From positions 2,542,001 through 2,606,000 of the forward strand of contig CM075989.1 of NCBI GenBank assembly GCA_038087875.1: 64,000 bases of DNA, written 5' to 3'. Shown here in pieces: positions 2,606 to 57,565 of this stretch. The notes beneath the pieces are model-generated. The model was given only the letters and a program-made list of their open reading frames with translations. It was not told the DNA's origin and searched no databases. The translations under genes were made by a program, and so were the position numbers. Position 1 is the first letter of the stretch. Each line of letters opens with the position of its first letter. Source of the stretch: Malacoraja senta (taxonomy: Eukaryota).

Positions 2606-3194
2606 AATTAATGCTGGTTTAAATTAATATTCTGTAAATTGGCCCTAGTGTCTCGAGGATGAATGCGAAAGTGGGATAACATAGAACTGGTGTGAATGGT
2701 TGATCATTGATTGGAGTGGACTCCATGGGCCGCCGGGACTGTTTCAGTGATGTGTCTCTAAACAAAACCAAAGTTTAGTGGAAAGTTCAATGAGATCAGG
2801 ACTTGGTGAGTTGATTGGTCATCTTCAGCAAATTCTAACTCATCAACTTCAACGAAACCCCCAGTAACATTGGAACAAAGGGTGAACACTGGGCCAGGAG
2901 GGAATCAGGCATGTTACAGGACAACCAGACTTTGGAAGGGCCCCAACCTCAAACGTCACCTCTCCATGTTCTCCAGAGATGCTGCCTGACCTGCTGAGTT
3001 ACTCCAGCACTCTGTGTCTTTTTTGTAAACCAGCACCTGTGTGTTTGAACCAGACGTTCCTTCTATTTTTTTATTTTTTATTTTTATTATTATCATTATT
3101 TTTTTTAATTCCTTCTATTCAGATGAACACAAATTAAGCAGATGAGTTCTATGGTCATGTCGAAAATTCTTTACTCAGTAAGTTTTCACGTGTT

Positions 3195-3402: not shown

Positions 3403-3795
3403 CTGCTTTACTGTTTAATGCAGGAGTTTCTTAAATGTACTCCTGCCTCTTGAGCCATCCATTGCCATTAAAGAGTGGCGCAGTGTACAATAACGGCAGA
3501 GAAAATCCAGACAATGGGAAAATGCGCCATTAAACTTAAATATCCAAACATTTCTGTCCAAGTCTGCAGCAACAACTGTCTTCAGTTGGAAGGGACATCA
3601 GTGAAATGCATTGAATAGCAAAATTTGTCACAATAAGTCTTCATCATTTCAGTCTATAAACCCCTAATGTGTTCATTTTTGACAATCATTATCCTATTAT
3701 CGTGTGTACTTATCGAGCTGTGACCTTTCAGCTTAGTTGAGTTTAGAGATACAGTGTGGAATCAGGCCTTTTGGCCCACCGAGTCCACACCGATC

Positions 3796-4740
3796 AATGA
3801 TTTGGATGAGAACAAGATTAGCAAGTTTGCTGATGATACAAAAGTTAGTGGTTTTGCAGATAGTGAAGATGGTTGTGAACGATTGCAGCAGGATCTGGAT
3901 CGATTGGCCAGGTGGGCGGAGGAATGGTTGATGGAATTTAATACAGAGAAGTGTGAGGTGTTGCATTTTGGGACGTCGAACAAGGGCAGGGCCTACACAG
4001 TGAATGGTAGGCTGGGTAGTGTTGTAGAGCAGAGGGATCTAGGAGTACAGGTGCATGGTTCCTTGAAGGTCGAGTCACAGGTAGATACGGTGATCAAAAA
4101 GGCTTTTGTCACTTTGGCCTTCATCAGTCAGAGTATTGAGTATAGAAGTTGGGAGGTCATGTTGCAGTTGTATAAGACGCTGGTGAGACCGCCTTTAGAA
4201 TATTATGTTCAGTTCTGGGCACCATGTTATAGGAAAGATATTGTCAAGCTTGCAAGGGTTCAGAAAAGATTTATGAGGATGTTGCCAGGACTAGAGGGTG
4301 TGACCTAGGGAGTTGAGTAGGCTGGGTCTCTATTCCGTGGAGTGCAGGAGGATGAGGGGGGATCTTATAGAGGTGTGTAAGATCATGAGAGGAATAGATC
4401 GGGTAGATGTACAGAGTCTTTTCCCCGAGTAGGGGAATCGAGGACCAGAGGACATAGGTTCAAGGTGAAGGGGAAAAGATTTAATAGGAATCGGAGTGTT
4501 AACTTTTTCACACAAAGAGTGGTGGGTGTATGGAACAAGCTGCTAGAGGAGGTAGTTGAGGCTGGGACTTTCCCATCATTTAAGAAACAGTTAGACAGGT
4601 ACATGGATAGGACAGATTTGGAGGGGTATGGACTAAGTGCAGGCAAGTGGGACTAGTGTAGCTGGGACATTGTTAGCCGGTGTGGGCGAGTTGGGCTGAA
4701 GGGCCTGTTTCCACACTGTATCACTCTGTGACTCTATGAC
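3796..4740 (+). mobile_element. 5'-truncated CR1 LINE (RT C-terminus plus 3'UTR) inserted into a minus-strand HE1 SINE (3733-3795 and 4741-4965)
   Basis: ISKFADDTK, LQQDLDRL, MEFNTEKCEVLHFG, LYKTLVRPPLEYYVQFW; ends in the GGGCTGAAGGGCCTGTTTCC hairpin and (TGACTCTA)-like tail. Confidence 0.93.
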
Positions 4741-26879: not shown

Positions 26880-27149
26880 CTATCACCAAGGTCTTGGTAT
26901 AGGGATGAGCTTATTCGATATATGGTATTGAAAGCTGTAGTCAATGTAAAGTATTGTGATGTAGGTATTCTTACTGTCAAGGTATTGCAAGCGAGATAGC
27001 AACTTTCAGAGACCAACTATTCTTGTATGTAAGTTGAATGGGGCTAAATAATCTGAAGAAGGGTCTCGACCCGAAACATCACCTATTCCTATTCTCCAGA
27101 GAAGCTGCCTGACCCGCTGAGTTACTCCAGCATTAAACCAGCATCTGTA

Positions 27150-27610: not shown

Positions 27611-28075
27611 GCACCTGCATTCCTGATTTCCTTATGGTCATACTTCATGGAAACAGGCCCTTTGGCCCAACTTGCCCATGCTGACCAACTTGCCCAATCT
27701 ATGTTAGTCCCACCTGCCAGCGTTTGGCTCAATCTCGCAAGACACAATCTTAGGTAACTAACTTGGGTACCACAATTTTCGGTAACTAATCTATAACCAT
27801 TCTCCCCCCACCCCCCCTTTATATCGTCCACTCTTCCCTGTGCTACACCTGGATTCACACCCAATACTCCTCTTCCCCCTCCCTCTTCCCCTTTCAATTG
27901 TATTCCTTTCTCTGGCTTCATATTTCTTCTATCCCTATCTCCTAATCTCACACTTTTTGTATTTTCATCTCTGGCTTTTGTCCAACCAACTGCCAATAAA
28001 TCCCCCCGCTTTGTCCTCCTTCCAGTTTCCCTCCAGTCCCCTCCCCCACATTACAATTAGTTTGAAGAAGGGTCC

Positions 28076-29436
28076 TGTAAACGGCTCAACAGATACAGGT
28101 CTGAAGTTTAAATCATCTTTAATCATATAGTGTAGCAGAGCGGTACAGTGGGTTGTTAGTTCATTGCTACCGCTAACATAACTATGTAATGTAGGAAATG
28201 GATGTTAATATAAAGTGTACAGTAAGGTGGAGTTAATGATGCTACACTACTCTGATTGGTTCACATGCAATAACAAATCTACATCCTTCCCCGTAAAGAG
28301 AAAAGGTTGTTAAACAAATGTTAAACACATACAGTTAAACGTACTCGCCATACCTGTCAGGTGGTCTACTAATTCGACCCGAGCACGTACGGACAAACCC
28401 CTCCCCCTCCATGCCAGAAAAGTTAGTGGGAGTGGGAGGCAGGGAACCCGAAAAGGAGAATGCAGTCCTATTGAACGTTTTATTTGCGATTTAAAATACA
28501 TGGCTCAGCGATGTCGTTTTGGGGAAATTTCGAATGAGCTGATACGGGACAAACTTGTTAGTGGTATGTCTGTTCAGAAGCTCAAGACAGAGCTACTTCG
28601 TAATGCCGATCTAACTCTCGAACAAGCTGTGCATGCCTGCCGCACGTCGGAGGTGGTGGCCCCACTAAGCGACCAGTTTGACACACAGAAAAAGAGTATA
28701 AACCAGACAGGCTTCACTAAACAAGCCACGTCGACAGCAAACAGAAGATTTATGAATGAACCGCCGCAAAGGTGTCCTAACTGTAACTACTTCCACAACA
28801 AAGGTCGGCTATTCTGTCCAGCGAACGGCAAGCCATGCAACTACTGCAAGAAGATGAACCATTTAGCCATTTGCTGCAGGTCCCGTGGGAACCACAATTC
28901 CAGTTCGGCGTCTAATCTGCACCTGCTGCAACAAGACCAAACATTTTCCGACTCCCAAGAACAGCTCGAAGATGCCCACGAGGATGATCCAATTAGCTCA
29001 TATGAAGAGTCTACTGTTCACACCCTCCTCCACACTGCTGGTAAGCTTTTGGATCCCTCTGTGTCATGCTAATTAATAACAAGCCTGTGAAGGCCAAATT
29101 GGATACCGGGGCGTGAGTGAATGTAATGTCCCTGAACATCTATAACAAGATAAGAAATAATGAGACCTTGACTAGAGACGGCTCCATCTTGCATGCCTAT
29201 GGGGGGGGGAGGTGCTCCATCCCACTTCTGACACCATGTAAATGACTTAACAGACACAGTTCTGAAGTTTAAATCATCTTTAATCATATAGTATAGCAGA
29301 GTGGGTTGTTAGTTCATTGCTACCACTAACATAACTACGTAATGTAGGGAAATGGGTGTTAATATAAAGTGTACTGTAAGGTGGAGTTAATAATGCTACA
29401 CTACTCTGATTGATTCACATGCAATAACCATCTACA
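28076..29436 (-). mobile_element. Internally deleted and inverted Gypsy LTR retrotransposon (LTRs 28076-28283 and 29237-29436; TSD GGTCC)
   Basis: Direct ~200-bp TG...CA LTRs; GGTCC at 28071-75 and 29437-41; minus-strand PBS TGGTGTCAGAAGTGGGAT (29219-36); minus-strand PPT GGGGAAGGA (28284-92). Confidence 0.93.
28450..29200 (+). pseudogene. Gypsy gag C-terminus (CCHC zinc knuckles) and start of protease
   Basis: ERFICDLKYMAQRCRFG, IRDKLVSG, DLTLEQAV, CPANGKPCNYCKKMNHLAICC; then frameshifted AKLDTGA*VNVM. Confidence 0.9.
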
Positions 29437-30386
29437 GGTCCCAACCTGAAACATCTCCTATCCATGTTCTTCAGAGATGCTGCCTTAGACGTTGGCAGAG
29501 ACACTGAATTACTCCAGCACTTTGTGCCTTTATTTGTAACCAGCACCCGCAGTCCCTTGAACCGTGTCTTTCTTTCTATTTAGAGTTACTCCAGCACTTT
29601 GTCTCTTTTCATGTCATTGTCAGTAGAACTTCCAAAAGCTCCAATATTAGGATATGGAACAGAATGTTAAACCAAGGCTCAATTTACCCTCTCAAGTAAA
29701 TGTGGGACCAGAGATTTGAAGATTATTCTGGCAGGGAGGGAGATTGTTTTAGGGTTTTAATAGAAAGACATGCATTTGTAATAACACTAGAGGAGTGAGT
29801 GATATATAGTTAATGCACGCCTTTCTATTTTGGCTGAATGATCGTCATCACGCATCCAGATATTTACCCTTTCTGGATAATGAGGCAGTATAGCTTCCAC
29901 GGGAGCTGGGCTGTGGGCCAACAAATTGAAATGATCTGACTGGACCACGAAAGAAAATGACGTCTAGAATCTTTCAAAATGACGAGATTGATGCCAGTCT
30001 TAGAAAACAACTTCCCACTCATCCGCATACCGATCAAATTCATCATGTACTTGGCATCTCCTCCAGGAAGGCCACTTGGAATCTGTCCAGCCAAGGTTTT
30101 TTATTAATTGCTGTCAAATGACCAGGAGGATCAGATAATTCACAATCTGTGGTTAAATGGGGCAATAAAACTCGTGTCAGTAGGAACGGATTTCTGGGAC
30201 TGGTTTGCATGCTTAATAACAAAAAAATCCAATTATCACATCCAGAGTGAGACAATATGGTCAAATATTCCTCTCTTACTTCTGTTTCTTTCCTCCGTAT
30301 GCCCTAGAGGAATATGGGCCAAACGCTGGTCAATGGAACCAGTTTAGATGAAGCATTATGGTCTGTATGGATGACTTGGGCCGAAG

Positions 30387-30594
30387 CGCGTGCGGACGGA
30401 GTGTCGAAGGACGGGAAGCCAAAGCGAGGAAGTGGAAGCCAAGATACCTACCGGAAACGACGCCGAAAAGCCAAATAACTGAACGGACACGGCGTTTGTT
30501 TGGTCATTTGGATTTCGGCATCGTTTCCGTTCGGTAACTTGGCTTCCACTTCTTCACTTCGGCTTGTCGTCCTTTGATGTCCCATCCGGGTACC
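30387..30594. mobile_element. ~208-bp foldback (fully palindromic) element inserted in a CR1 3' tail
   Basis: Arms ~100 bp, e.g. GAAGTGGAAGCCAAG vs CTTGGCTTCCACTTC; flanks GGGCCGAAG (30378-86) and GGGCTAAAG (30595-603). Confidence 0.75.
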
Positions 30595-32104: not shown

Positions 32105-33101
32105 TGTTTAAGAAAGAACTGCAGATGCTGGAAAATCGAAGGTAGGCAAAAATGCTGGAGAAACTCAGCGGGTGAGGCAGCATCTATGGAGCGAAGGAAA
32201 TAGGCAACGTTTCGGGTCGAGACCTTCAGACTGATGTGAGGGTGGGAAGAAGAAAGGAAGAGGCGGAGACAGTGGGCTGAGGGAGAGCTGGGTAGGGGTG
32301 GAGAAAGCAGGGACTACCTGAAATTGGAGGTCATTGTTCATACCGCTGGGGTGTAAACTGCCCAAGCGAAATATGAGGTGCTGCTCCTCCAACTTATGGT
32401 GTGCTTCATAATGGCCATGGAGGAGGCCCAGGACAGAAAGGTCGGATTCGGAATGGGAGTGGGAGTTGAAGTGCTGGGCCACCGGGAGATCAGGTTGGTT
32501 AATGCGAACCGAGCGGAGGTGTTGGGCGAAGCGATCGCCAAGCCTACGCTTGGTCTCACCGATGTAGAGCAGCTGACACCTAGAGGAGCGGATGCAATAG
32601 ATGAGGTTGGAGGAGGTGCAGGTGAACCTCTGCCGCACCTGGAAAGACTGCTTGGGTCCTTGGATGGAGTCAAGGGGGGAGGTAAAGCGACAAGTGTAGC
32701 ATTTCCTGCGGTTGCAAGGGAAAGTGCCAGGGGAGGGGGTGGTTTGGGTGGGAAGGGGCGAATTGACCAGGGAGTTACGAAGGGAGCGGTCTCTGCCGAA
32801 AGCAGACAGGGGAGGAGGTGGGAGGATGTGGCCAGTGGTGGGATCCCGTTGGAGGTGGTGAAAATGTCGGAGGATTATTTGTTGCTGGTAGTGTGGAAAG
32901 TGAGGACAAGGGGGACTCTGTCCTTGTTACGAGTGGGGGGATGGGGAGTGAGAGCAGAGTCACAGGGTATAGAAGAGACCCTGGTGAGAGCCTCATCTAT
33001 AGTAGAAGAGGGGAACCCCCGTTCCCTGAAGAATAAGGACATCTCCGATGCCCTGGTTTGGAAAACCTCATCCTGGGTGCAGATGCGGCGTAGACGGAGG
33101 A
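32105..33101 (-). mobile_element. Penelope-like element (RT thumb, linker, GIY-YIG, pLTR), 5'-truncated
   Basis: FLRLRRICTQDEVF; ORF 32165-32638 NLIYCIR...LLYIGETKRRLGDRFAQHL...KLEEQHLIFRLGSLHPSGMN. Confidence 0.93.
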
Positions 33102-39047: not shown

Positions 39048-41755
39048 CTTTTTTAAAAATTTTTTATTTTTATTTATTGGAAGTACATTACATTACAACC
39101 AATTACATTAGTACTCATCACGTATATCTTATTACAATTAATGTACTCCGTCATTTTTTACACTGATAAAAAGGAAAGGTTGAGATTAAGAAAAAAGAGA
39201 AAGTGAAGGAAAATAGTGAAGGTGTAAAAACGTGACAACAGGAAAGAACAGAGACCCTGTAGAAAAGAAATTAAAAAGAAAGGATTAAGAGATAGACCCT
39301 AAAGAAGAAAAAAAAGAGAAAGAGGAAAAAAGAGAAAAACAAATACTTTGTTATAAGCATCACGCAAATGGGATATACCAACTCTCCAGCTTTCATCCCC
39401 CTTTACCTGACCTCAGTTTTTTTTTTAAAGTACTTTTGCACCCTATACTTGTAATAATTCTATAAATGCAGACCACGTCAGGTGGAAGTGATCTGGTTTA
39501 CCTGCCAGGAGGAGTCTTATCTCTTCCAGGTGTAATGTTTCAAACATATTTGAAATCCACATGTTTATAGTTGGTATTGGAGCGTTTTCCCAGAATTTTA
39601 GGATTAACTTTTTTCCAGTTATTAACCCGTAATCTATTAATTTCTTTTGAAACACATTTAGTTCAGGACTATCTTCCGTAGTTCCGAAGATAATCCATTC
39701 TGCTTTTGGTATCAGTTTTATTTTAAATAATTTTGTAAAGATTTCAAAAATTTAAATCCAAAATTTTTGGATTTTTGTACAAAAAACAAATGAGTGCGCT
39801 ATAGTAGCTTCTTGAGATTGATATTTATCACAAATGGATGTTACATTGGGGAAAATTTTATTAATTTTAGTTTTTGAATAATATAATCTATGTAAAATTT
39901 TAAATTGTATTAAAGTGTGTCTTACATTAATCGAACATTTATACACGTTTAATAAATGTTCATTCCACCTTTCCTTTGAGATTTTAATAGCTAATTCTTG
40001 TTCCCAGTCTCTTCTAATACCTTCCGTAGATGGTATTTCTACATTTAAGATAATATCATACAAATATGATATTAAGTTTGCTGATTCAGCTTTTATCTGC
40101 ATTGCTTCATCCAATACATCTGCTGGGATATTATAATGATCTTTTGTATATTTTTTCAAATAGTCACATATTTGAAAATATTTAAAATATTGATTATTTC
40201 CCAGTTTATATTTTATTTGTAATTGTTGGAATGATAGTAATTTTCCATTTTCATACAAGTCACCGAACGTTTTAATTCCTAGTCTATCCCATTGTGTAAA
40301 AGATTTGTCTGTAATAGAAGGATTAAACGAAGGGTTATTAACTATTGGAGATAAAAGCGATAGATTTCTTAATTTTAAATTTTGTTTTATTTGTTTCCAA
40401 GTTCTGATTGTACTATGTATAATTGGGTTTTTGTTATAATTTATGTTATTCAGTTTCATTGGTGAGAGGAAGGTCGCTCCAATATTACCAGAGGAGCAGT
40501 CCTCTCTCTCCATTACAATCCAGTCCACTTGCTGGGCAGAGTTGTCCATCAGTTGGATCATATTTTTAATATTTACTGACCAATAATAATACATGAAGTT
40601 AGGGAGTGCTAAGCTTTGTTCAAGTGTGTTCTTTGTATTCTATGGGATTTATAATCCCATATAAAATTAATAATGTCTGAGTCCAATTAAAAAAAAAACT
40701 TATTTGGTAGGTATATAGGAATCAATTGAAATAGGTATAGAATTTGTGGTAAGAAGATCATTTTTATTGCATTTATTCGGCCTATTAAAGACATCGGAAG
40801 CGTTTTCCAAAATGTAATTAATGTATTTAATATATTAAGTAGAGGATCAAAATTTGCTTTGAACATGCCTTGATATGTTCTGGTGATTTCAATACCCAAG
40901 TATTTAAATTTTTCTGTAGCTATTTTAAAAGGGAATTTTAAAAGATGTGTTGAGTCTTTTGGTTTTATTGACATAATTTCACTTTTATTCCAATTTATTC
41001 CAGAAAAGGATCCAAGGTCCTCAATTAGATTTAGTATGTTTGGTATAGTAATTTGAGGTTTTGTAATGTACAATAATATATCATCCGCGTATAAAGATAT
41101 TTTATTATTTGAGTATTTAGTTTTATACCCATAGATATCTGGATGTGTTCTAATTTTTTCTGCGAAAGGTTCAATTATGAGAGCAAACAACTGTGGTGAT
41201 AATGAGCATCCTTGTCTGTTTCCCCTTGATAGTTGAAATTTCGAGGATAATATGTTATTAGTTAGTATTCTAGCTGTAGGTTTATTATATAATAATTTAA
41301 TCCATAAAATAAAATTCTCTCCTAGTTGGAATTTTTGTAATACTTTATCCATATAATTCCATTCTACTTGGTCAAATGCTTTTTCAGCATCCAACGAAAT
41401 AATTGATAATTCTTGTTCTTCAATTTTGTGTGAGTGCATTATATTGAGTAGACGTCTAATATATTATTAGATGAATATCTCTTAGGGATAAACCCGTCTG
41501 ATCTGGGTTTATTAATTTACTAATATATTTACTTAATCTTCTAGCTAATGTTTTCGCTAATATTTTTTGAGCTGTATTTAACAATGCTATAGCTCTATAT
41601 AAACCCGGTTCTTCTATATCTTTGTCTTTTTTAAGTATTAGTGTGATCATTGATTCAGCTAATGTATCAGGTAATATTTGTTTTTTAAAAGCATATTGAT
41701 ACATTTTTTGTAACCATGGTATAATTTTGTCATAAAAGCTTTTATAAAATTCATT
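39048..41755 (-). mobile_element. 5'-truncated L1-clade LINE (ORF2 RT and C-terminus, 3'UTR, A-rich tail) inside an HE1 SINE
   Basis: NEFYKSF, YRAIALLN, SLDAEKAFDQVEW, RGNRQGCSLSP, LYADD, KYLGI, YYWSV, FKILHRLY; TSD GGCCCACTGATT at 39036-47 and 41756-67. Confidence 0.96.
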
Positions 41756-50592: not shown

Positions 50593-51667
50593 AGATTTGT
50601 AGGTTCATTAGCATGGTGTAAATGTTCAAAAATGTCCCTATGTCTGTAGGGTAGTATTAATGTGTGAGGATCGCTGGTCGGTGGGCTGAAGGGCCTGTTT
50701 CCATGCTGTATCTAAACTAAACTAAACTAAAGGTGAGCATAATAAATGTAAACCTAATTCAGTTCAACAACAAAGAGAGAAATGGGACAAAAGTAAGATT
50801 TCCTCCTATTCCTAAAAAGACACAAAGTGCTGGAATAACTCAGCAGGTCAGGCAGCATCACTGGAGGAAATGGATAGGTAATGTTTCGTGTCAGGACCCT
50901 TCTTCAGCCCTATCTGTCAAGTTACTCCAGCACTCTGCATCCTTTTGTGTAAACACGCACCTGCAATTCCTTCTTTCTACATTCTTCCTATTCTGTGGGC
51001 AACCTGTCTGGTGGTGACTCTTTATGCGCTGGTCCCGGCAATGGATCTGTTCTCATTCATGACAACTGCTCCACTCTCTTAACTCGTTCTTTATTCCCTT
51101 CATTCTGTATCTGTACACTGCGGAAGGCTTGATTGTAATCGTGTATAATATTTTTGCTGACTGGTTAGCACTCAACAAAAAATCTGTACACTGTACCTTG
51201 GTACATGTGACAATAAATTAAACTAGTCACAAAATGCTGTAGTAACTCAGCGGGACAGGCAGCATCTCTGGAGAGAAGGAATGGGTGACGTTTAGAAGGG
51301 TCTCGACCCATTCCTTCTCTCCAGAGATACTGCCTGTCCCGCAGAGTTACTCCAGCATTTTGTGTCTACCTTCGATTTTAAACCAGCATCAGCAGTTCTT
51401 TCCTAAACTAAACTAGACAGCACTAGCACACCCAACACAGTTTAAGCCCTCATAAGGAATGATCTCCAGGGAGTCAGCATTTAATTCAATGGACCTGAAT
51501 TCACTGAAAGGTCAACAAGATGACATGGATCAAGTGTTTGATTAATGGTTCGCACTCCACCCAGCATTATTGATGAATTGATATTTAATTTGTATGTAAA
51601 CGCAACATAAAATAGATAGAGAGAGAGGAACTGTGATTTCAGATCGGGCATCACATAGAAGGAGTAA

Positions 51668-54927: not shown

Positions 54928-55122
54928 AGAGAAAAGTGCTGGAGAAACTCATCGGGTGCAGCAGCATCTATGGAGCGAAGGAAATAGGCAACGTTTCGGC
55001 CCGAAATCTTTCGGCCCGAATCGTTGCCAAACCTTTCGGCCCGAAATGCCCGCTAAACTTTATTAAACATTGTCTGGCTTCTTAAATGTCTCTCCAATCC
55101 TTCTCCCTCCCTCCCTCTCTCT

Positions 55123-57565
<2,443 letters not shown>

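What the first reader, a model, noticed from the sequence alone, without database searches (positions are those of the whole stretch)
28071..29441. Mini Gypsy element whose gag-protease is inverted relative to its own LTRs, PBS and PPT
Seen on the minus strand: 5' LTR, then an 18-nt PBS (the plus strand reads ATCCCACTTCTGACACCA, the tRNA-Leu 3' end as I recall it). An ATG overlaps the PBS end and reads MEHLPPP, a plausible gag start. At the far end is an integrase-type C-terminal motif (VRTCSGRISRPPDRYGEYV*), then PPT and 3' LTR. The ~750 bp between (about 28450-29205) encodes Gag zinc knuckles and protease DTG on the PLUS strand, and RT, RNase H and most of IN are missing. All cis signals and the 5-bp TSD are retained. 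Inference: either a non-autonomous family that transposed in this form and makes antisense-gag RNA (a built-in silencing trigger against its helper), or a one-off inversion-deletion after insertion.
Basis: partly seen in the sequence, partly recalled or inferred. Interest (0 to 1): 0.72.

Follow-up and report, generated by a model that had tools for sequence, protein, structure and literature searches.

The report
Old chimeric Gypsy retrotransposon relic
A shrunken jumping-gene copy in a skate-like fish genome carries, backwards, a piece that probably came from a different retrotransposon family; it is real and old, but looks like one inherited relic rather than a spreading or working silencer.

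Summary
The anatomy is real: two 200/208-nt LTRs (6.5% apart), a 5-bp target duplication, tRNA-Leu(CAA) primer site, gag-type start, integrase tail and PPT on the minus strand, and about 740 bp of broken gag-protease on the plus strand. It is not a misassembly: contigs from two other organisms bridge one junction each. (1) The inverted piece is probably not the element's own gag. Its closest relatives (75% and 40% identical) begin MAESYRKP/MSNSCRKP, not MEHLPPP, so it looks like a chimera of two Mag-like Gypsy families. (2) There is no sign of an amplified family. The bridging contigs have single-copy depth, differ from the window by 6.4-6.9% (unrearranged relatives 10-16%), and rare window letters are carried by about one copy, which fits one orthologous old insertion. 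Whether it was rearranged before or just after integration is open. Antisense RNA and silencing are unshown. No genome was held, so the genome-wide junction count could not be run.

The parts
28071..28075 (.). Left copy of 5-bp target-site duplication (GGTCC), inside a high-copy host repeat
   Evidence: uninterrupted copies of the host repeat elsewhere in the window and empty-site-like joints in other runs (table 5)
28076..28283 (-). 3' LTR, 208 nt, TG...CA (family A shell)
28284..28292 (-). Polypurine tract (9 purines) abutting the 3' LTR
   Evidence: sequence
28335..28465 (-). C-terminal tail of pol/integrase with stop codon (family A)
   Evidence: tblastn to residues 1384-1415 of 1417 of Gag-Pol P0134, 47%, pairwise E 0.002; similar motif ends 3 of the 14 hits of 1100-1500 aa; unrearranged relatives match LTR end-PPT-tail and stop at 28465 (X3 record 9; X5 record 19 likewise from 28276)
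28465..28467 (.). Junction 1 (integrase tail, minus, against gag, plus); no evident microhomology, one base unassigned
   Evidence: table 8 (records stop at 28465 or start at 28467-28471; X5 record 18 bridges it); skate Gag P0009 aligns from 28467
28467..29069 (+). Antisense-oriented gag fragment lacking about the first 119 codons; two Cys/His knuckles at 28773-28877 (probably family B)
   Evidence: 75% identical over 169 aa to skate Gag proteins; 5686 HMMER hits at E<=0.001
29045..29207 (+). N-terminal part of the aspartic protease (DTG at 29102-29110), out of frame with gag and with an in-frame stop at 29114-29116
29201..29209 (.). Junction 2: a G-run readable as protease Gly codons (plus) or gag Pro codons (minus); possible microhomology
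   Evidence: X1 record 8 matches to 29207; X3 record 16 bridges it
29200..29220 (-). Gag-type start ATG and about six codons (MEHLPP), overlapping the PBS (family A)
   Evidence: 18 of 148 Gag hits begin M[EDS]x1-3PP
29219..29236 (-). Primer-binding site, 18 nt, complementary to the tRNA-Leu(CAA) 3' end
   Evidence: identical to the 5' 18 nt of a tRNA-Leu(CAA) probe in PMC7997516
29237..29436 (-). 5' LTR, 200 nt, TG...CA (family A shell)
29437..29441 (.). Right copy of the target-site duplication (GGTCC)

Best explanation
An old, single-locus, internally replaced Gypsy (Mag-like) LTR element. The shell (LTRs, Leu PBS, first gag codons, integrase tail, PPT) comes from one family (A). Nearly all of its coding interior was replaced by about 740 bp of gag-protease from a second, related family (B) in the opposite orientation. 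Integration here was done by a normal integrase (TG...CA ends, 5-bp TSD: shown). The swap is an illegitimate recombination with a G-run overlap at one junction and a blunt join at the other (junctions shown, mechanism inferred). It happened either in a precursor (template switching during reverse transcription, or an earlier nested B-in-A insertion trimmed by deletions, then copied once in trans) or just after integration (break repair with filler DNA, or nesting plus two deletions); I put these at about even odds. The rearranged copy was inherited by at least three organisms and has decayed (frame break, stop, 6-7% divergence). It codes for nothing and most likely does nothing now.
For: Junction 1 is bridged by X5 record 18 (520 of 520 nt aligned, 28276-28795, 33 differences, depth 6.56) and junction 2 by X3 record 16 (363 of 363 nt, 29031-29388, 24 differences, depth 10): 2 of the 24 pieces listed. 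Their depths equal single-copy depth (medians 10.0 and 8.6). They differ from the window by 6.4% and 6.9%, about the LTR-LTR value of 6.5% (CI 3.5-10.9%). Six unrearranged pieces that end at junction 1 differ by 10.5-16% (pooled 57/868 against 169/1306; listed pieces are the longest, not a random sample). At 28685 the window's letter can be carried by at most 0.7 of 71 copy-units in X5, 1.1 of 123 in X3 and 0 of 139 in X1; at 28573 by 0.6 of 20 in X5. For two families: on a tree of the gag core with the N-terminus left out, the window piece falls in a 99-support clade with P0005, P0009 and P0031. All three begin with an RKP..L.FDSDI motif that is kept even between proteins only 42% identical, while MEHLPPP resembles starts of other lineages (MEALPPP, MEHLRAP).
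Against: No flank-bridging contig was listed, so orthology is inferred from shared rare letters and divergence, not shown. Only 24 of 30,264 pieces, 40 of 733 letter rows and 15 of 36 joints were printed. At 28470, X5 has 10 contigs, of which at most three are identified among the listed pieces, so a few sibling copies are possible. At one site shared by both LTRs (28136/29297) up to 32 of 89 units in X5 lack the commonest other letter, so the source LTR lineage may not be small everywhere. The two-family claim rests on protein N-termini; no DNA of an intact family A or B element was seen. The tree is the quick version with 52 of 79 branches open. X1 showed no bridging contig and none of the window's letters at several inner sites, with 88% of the run read.
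Confidence: 0.6

Rival explanations
1. One-family inversion-deletion at a single locus: gag codons about 8-119 and most of pol were deleted, and the element's own gag-protease was flipped.
For: Both pieces belong to the same broad Gag-Pol group. Summed depths over the inner LTR and over gag are of the same order in three runs (table 2), as expected for one family. Internal inversions with deletions are a recognised class of defective provirus (PMC8473067, passages seen).
Against: The 75%-identical Gags start MAESYRKP, and 17 in-frame residues upstream of that start (P0008) match none of the three frames of the shell's PBS-leader. The N-terminal signature is conserved out to 42% identity. No strand-change joint is among the 15 of 36 joints printed, though contigs are too short for that to weigh much.
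Confidence: 0.2
2. A non-autonomous mini-family that transposed repeatedly in this form (all cis signals are kept), of which this is one member.
For: Perfect cis anatomy and TSD. Both junctions appear to predate a split that is about as old as the LTR pair (6.4-6.9% against 6.5%), leaving little time for rearrangement after insertion. At four sites both LTRs share a letter that is uncommon in the family, as if copied from an aged, low-copy source.
Against: Bridging contigs are at single-copy depth, and window letters at 28573 and 28685 sit in about one copy. At the shared LTR site 28150/29303 only 1.4 of 136 units (X5), 3.0 of 90 (X3) and 5.7 of 155 (X1) lack the commonest other letter. Depth dips at junction 1 rather than staying level. 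No second copy in 64 kb.
Confidence: 0.13
3. The locus is kept because LTR-driven RNA is antisense to family B gag-protease and feeds piRNA/siRNA silencing of family B, or of the expressed skate gag-only gene.
For: Geometry only: a transcript from the 5' LTR would be antisense to a gag with many relatives in three genomes and to a transcribed skate gene. The locus seems to have persisted in at least three organisms.
Against: Its divergence from the bridging contigs equals neutral-looking LTR divergence, with no sign of constraint. The element has no self-complementarity longer than 18 nt, so it makes no hairpin. It sits among ordinary repeats. Persistence of a neutral insertion needs no selection.
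Confidence: 0.05
4. Assembly artefact.
For: The window's own reads were not available (best run holds 0.21 of the sampled words).
Against: Each junction is bridged by a full-length-aligned contig from another organism and study, with 31 or more letters on both sides.
Confidence: 0.01

Closest known systems
Mag lineage of Ty3/Gypsy LTR retrotransposons
   Same: Short LTRs (119-304 nt in the Culex table), mostly 5-bp TSD, tRNA-Leu or -Ser PBS (PMC3286476, passages and Table 1 seen). Full-length protein relatives have the order PR-RT-RNase H-IN (4 long proteins with RT, RNase H and integrase).
   Different: No RT, RNase H or integrase core is left, so RT-based placement is impossible. The interior is antisense and probably from a second family.
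Internally deleted non-autonomous LTR elements (deletion derivatives; TRIM/LARD-type elements, names recalled)
   Same: Small element keeping LTRs, PBS, PPT and TSD with no coding capacity. Non-autonomous LTR elements with unrelated interiors are described (PMC3286476; PMC11963269).
   Different: No evidence of amplification. The interior is a recognisable antisense gag-protease fragment rather than tandem repeats or non-coding DNA.
Retand elements with antisense ORFs (plants)
   Same: Gypsy elements carrying coding-like sequence antisense to gag-pol (PMC11963269, abstract and passages seen).
   Different: There the antisense ORFs are intact, conserved (TRP28 in 97% of clusters) and in recently active families; here the piece is a broken gag-protease in one old copy.
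Defective proviruses with internal inversion and large deletion; filler DNA at repaired breaks
   Same: Inversion plus deletion is a standard defect class of HIV proviruses (PMC8473067, passages); deletion with copied filler is a known repair outcome (PMC2686159, passages).
   Different: The maize fillers cited are 1-131 bp and come from nearby; this insert is about 740 bp and probably from another family, and it was fixed in a germ line.

Membership tests
LTR retrotransposon insertion | Two direct LTRs with TG...CA ends | tested here: met
LTR retrotransposon insertion | Target-site duplication | tested here: met
   GGTCC both sides, splitting a host repeat
LTR retrotransposon insertion | PBS after the 5' LTR and PPT before the 3' LTR on one strand | tested here: met
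Ty3/Gypsy | pol order PR-RT-RNase H-IN | tested here: inconclusive
   Absent from the element. Relatives of the gag piece show this order, and the minus-strand tail matches the post-integrase C-terminus of one.
Mag lineage | RT/RNase H/IN phylogeny | not testable with these tools
   The element has no RT; no intact parent DNA was obtained
Mag lineage | Short LTRs, 5-bp TSD, Leu/Ser PBS | tested here: met
   against PMC3286476 Table 1; typical of Mag but not exclusive to it
Mobile non-autonomous family | Several loci with the same junctions and different TSDs | tested here: inconclusive
   No genome held; none in the window; read-depth evidence points to about one copy per genome
Inversion of the element's own gag | Inverted gag belongs to the lineage of the start next to the PBS | tested here: not met
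   Protein level only: closest Gags start with RKP..L.FDSDI, not MEHLPPP; not confirmed on DNA
Antisense silencing locus (piRNA/siRNA source) | Antisense transcript and small RNAs from this locus | not testable with these tools
   No small-RNA or same-species RNA run was listed

The most novel reading that the evidence does not exclude
A non-autonomous mini-element that travels with family A's cis signals while carrying family B's gag-protease in antisense: a mobile silencer aimed at a rival retrotransposon family (and at the expressed skate gag-only gene derived from that family), copied at least once in this form and kept across several cartilaginous-fish species.
Probability: 0.07. Interest if true: 0.62.

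Novelty: new variant of a known kind. Interest (0 to 1): 0.2.

Why it matters
As it stands it is a tidy example of how two Gypsy families can recombine into a compact chimera that keeps every cis signal, and a dated shared insertion usable as a phylogenetic marker in skate-like fishes. It would matter more only if the junctions recur at other sites or the locus yields antisense small RNAs, because a mobile element that silences another family in trans would link non-autonomous transposition to the birth of piRNA sources. The side finding, a transcribed gag-only gene shared by two skate genera, may be the better lead.

Tried and rejected
Genome-wide junction count: no genome is held for this window. 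Search of the 64-kb window for a second LTR or interior copy: none. tRNA genes in the window: 0. Search for the shell family's own protein with the 43-residue integrase tail: 12 candidates, none at E<=10, weak evidence. PBS+ATG pattern in viral contigs: 0 matches. Skate Gag against metagenome contigs: 1 locus at 30% identity, uninformative (a crude PBS look in its first 1200 nt found nothing). Earlier findings of this scan: nothing in 3 look-ups. No RNA holder listed. One poly(A) raw-read run of another organism (X23, about 6% read) gave depth 0-1 over the interior and no listed junction read; that organism was not shown to carry the copy, so this says nothing on expression. Hairpin/dsRNA within the element: longest self-complement 18 nt, E 0.79, rejected. 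A plus-strand orientation of the LTRs was rejected: no PBS or PPT on that strand. The careful tree did not finish; the quick tree was used (82 rows kept out of 168 proteins: only those with their own N-terminus, near-duplicate skate rows dropped). Pfam found no curated-score hit for the gag; ESM Atlas features put the skate protein with Gag/CCHC clusters (0.97). Literature: searches listed no paper whose title or abstract start describes an LTR element with an inverted gag from its own or another family, and search 47 none on a co-opted gag in skates. These cover only the held open-access library, and listings were read, not full texts. No supplements were opened.

Full report
Observation. The element spans 28076-29436 between two copies of GGTCC (28071-28075, 29437-29441). 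The LTRs are 208 and 200 nt, both TG...CA, with 13 mismatches in 199 paired columns (10 transitions; K2P 0.069) and 10 gap columns. The insertion splits a host repeat of which many uninterrupted copies lie in the window, so the site is a true insertion. On the minus strand an 18-nt PBS follows the 5' LTR; it is identical to the start of a published tRNA-Leu(CAA) probe (PMC7997516, passage seen). An ATG overlaps it and reads MEHLPPP-stop. At the other end a short ORF matches the last 32 residues of a Gag-Pol relative (47%, pairwise E 0.002) and is followed by a 9-purine PPT. Between them, on the plus strand, lie a gag fragment with two Cys/His knuckles and the first part of a protease (PF13975, E 4.5e-4, under the curated cut-off), out of frame and with one stop.

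Host. No genome is held. The closest named proteins are from the skates Leucoraja erinacea and Amblyraja radiata, so the window is probably from a skate or a relative (inference). Twenty runs of 10 studies and 8 coded organisms hold part of the stretch, the best 0.21 of its words; none is the window's own species at close identity.

Junctions are real. I laid 4 of the 24 listed runs on 28020-29490 at 80% likeness. Of the 24 pieces printed (of 30,264), two bridge a junction. X5 record 18 (organism D) aligns over all 520 nt, 28276-28795, across junction 1. X3 record 16 (organism B) aligns over all 363 nt, 29031-29388, across junction 2. The distance-to-end column suggests that a further X3 contig runs from 28365 or lower to 28497 across junction 1 (28431+66 = 28470+27 = 28497; my reading of that column). 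Seven other pieces end at junction 1 with an unmatched tail: two stop at 28465 and five start at 28467-28471. These are unrearranged relatives, and they fix the break at 28465/28467; the skate Gag also aligns from 28467. Junction 2 lies in the G-run 29201-29209, which reads as protease Gly codons on one strand and gag Pro codons on the other. Misassembly is excluded.

One locus or a family? The bridging records have depths 6.56 and 10, against single-copy medians of 10.0 and 8.6. They differ from the window by 6.4% and 6.9%. Six unrearranged pieces differ by 10.5-16% (pooled 57/868 against 169/1306; the seventh, X5 record 22, was not pooled; listed pieces are the longest, so this is descriptive). 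I took 22 of the 40 printed letter rows (of 733). At 28685 the depth left for the window's letter is 0.7 of 71 copy-units in X5, 1.1 of 123 in X3 and 0 of 139 in X1; at 28573 it is 0.6 of 20 in X5, and 0 in X3 and X1. Other rows leave more (up to 13 of 83 at 28739 in X5) and do not discriminate. Letters shared with the window by only one copy's depth are what an orthologue gives; a family would carry them at family depth. At sites where both window LTRs share an uncommon letter, the remainder is 1.4-5.7 units at 28150/29303 and 4.8-7.7 at 28128/29289, but 32 of 89 in X5 at 28136/29297 (remainders include third letters, and summed depth is no true copy number). So the source LTR lineage looks small, with one row against. 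No flank-bridging contig was printed, and most contigs at 28470 are unidentified, so orthology is inferred and a few siblings are possible. X1 (88% read) showed no bridge.

Whose gag? The inverted piece is 75% identical over 169 aa to skate Gags that begin MAESYRKPAQLIFDSDI. On a quick tree of the gag core, N-terminus excluded (82 rows; 6 of 79 branches starred), it falls in a 99-support clade with P0005, P0009 and P0031. P0031 is only 42% identical to P0009 yet keeps RKP..L.FDSDI. MEHLPPP instead fits the start of other lineages: 18 of 148 hits begin M[EDS]x1-3PP, and examples such as MEALPPP and MEHLRAP are 32-34% identical to the window's gag. One hit (P0098) even carries the translated PBS, WCQKW, just before its gag start. 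The simplest reading is a family A shell with a family B insert. I could not see DNA of an intact A or B element (searches gave none), so an own-gene inversion keeps about 20-25%.

How it arose. Shown: integrase-type insertion, two precise junctions, decay. Inferred: an illegitimate recombination that replaced several kb of A by about 740 bp of B in antisense. Before integration, this could be a template switch during reverse transcription, or an older nested B-in-A locus trimmed by deletions and then copied once in trans. This is favoured by the near equality of LTR-LTR divergence (6.5%, CI 3.5-10.9%) and window-to-bridging-contig divergence (6.4-6.9%), which leaves little time after insertion, and by the uncommon letters shared by both LTRs. 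After integration, it could be break repair with filler, or nesting plus two deletions; the wide interval allows this. I rate the two about equal. Deletion with inversion is a known defect class of proviruses (PMC8473067, passages), and deletion with filler a known repair outcome (PMC2686159, passages; fillers there are 1-131 bp).

Function. A transcript from the 5' LTR would be antisense to B's gag-protease, but nothing shows it exists. The element forms no hairpin, and divergence looks neutral.

Comparison. Short LTRs, 5-bp TSD and a Leu PBS match the Mag lineage as tabulated for Culex (PMC3286476, passages and Table 1), and long relatives have the Gypsy order PR-RT-RNase H-IN; membership cannot be tested without RT. 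Retand elements carry antisense ORFs, but intact and conserved (PMC11963269, abstract and passages). Searches listed no described case of this exact architecture, judged from titles and abstract starts in the held library only.

Verdict. A real, old, probably single-locus chimeric relic: a new variant of a known kind, interest 0.2. The most novel reading not excluded, a mobile antisense silencer of a second family, has probability about 0.07 and would deserve about 0.6. A side lead, a transcribed gag-only gene shared by two skate genera (12 of 288 residues differ), may repay a closer look.

Noticed in passing
Proteins P0005, P0007-P0020 (relatives of window 28467-28937): The closest relatives form one cluster of 15 with annotated genes LOC129710199 (Leucoraja erinacea) and LOC116981896 (Amblyraja radiata): a gag-only ORF of 288-305 aa that ends at the same residue in both genera, differs at 12 of 288 residues, has annotated isoforms, and has 10 Logan members. 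Candidate co-opted Gag in skates; selection not tested. One literature search listed no paper on it.
   Followed up: partly
P0006 (LOC129709725, Leucoraja erinacea): Another copy of the same gag family in which the gag end runs straight into what looks like the start of RT (resemblance recalled; no Pfam hit), i.e. probably a different internal deletion.
   Followed up: no
window 28220-28369 and 29220-29269: Summed contig depth is far higher over one end of the LTR/PPT and over the PBS than over the rest of the LTR, suggesting that other, more abundant families share these ends.
   Followed up: no
window 30393-30588: Inverted repeat with 76-nt arms, 80% complementary, 44 nt apart; G+C-richer than its surroundings by eye; possibly a small DNA-transposon relic.
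   Followed up: no
window about 55050-57200: About 2 kb of (CA)n-type microsatellite with strong GC and AT skew, giving spurious long ORFs.
   Followed up: no
window 39752-41463 (-), 3724-4308 (+), 32165-32926 (-): Non-LTR retroelement remnants: RT (PF00078 E 1e-25) with zf-RVT in an A+T-rich block, a weaker RT piece, and a GIY-YIG ORF (Penelope-like; label recalled) (4 of 6 ORFs scanned had a hit).
   Followed up: partly
window, many sites (e.g. 2939-3068, 27062-27110, 50816-50898): The host repeat that the element interrupts occurs in dozens of short copies in the window. In the RNA run it shows a tandem-like joint 29485 to 29447 in 123 reads.
   Followed up: no
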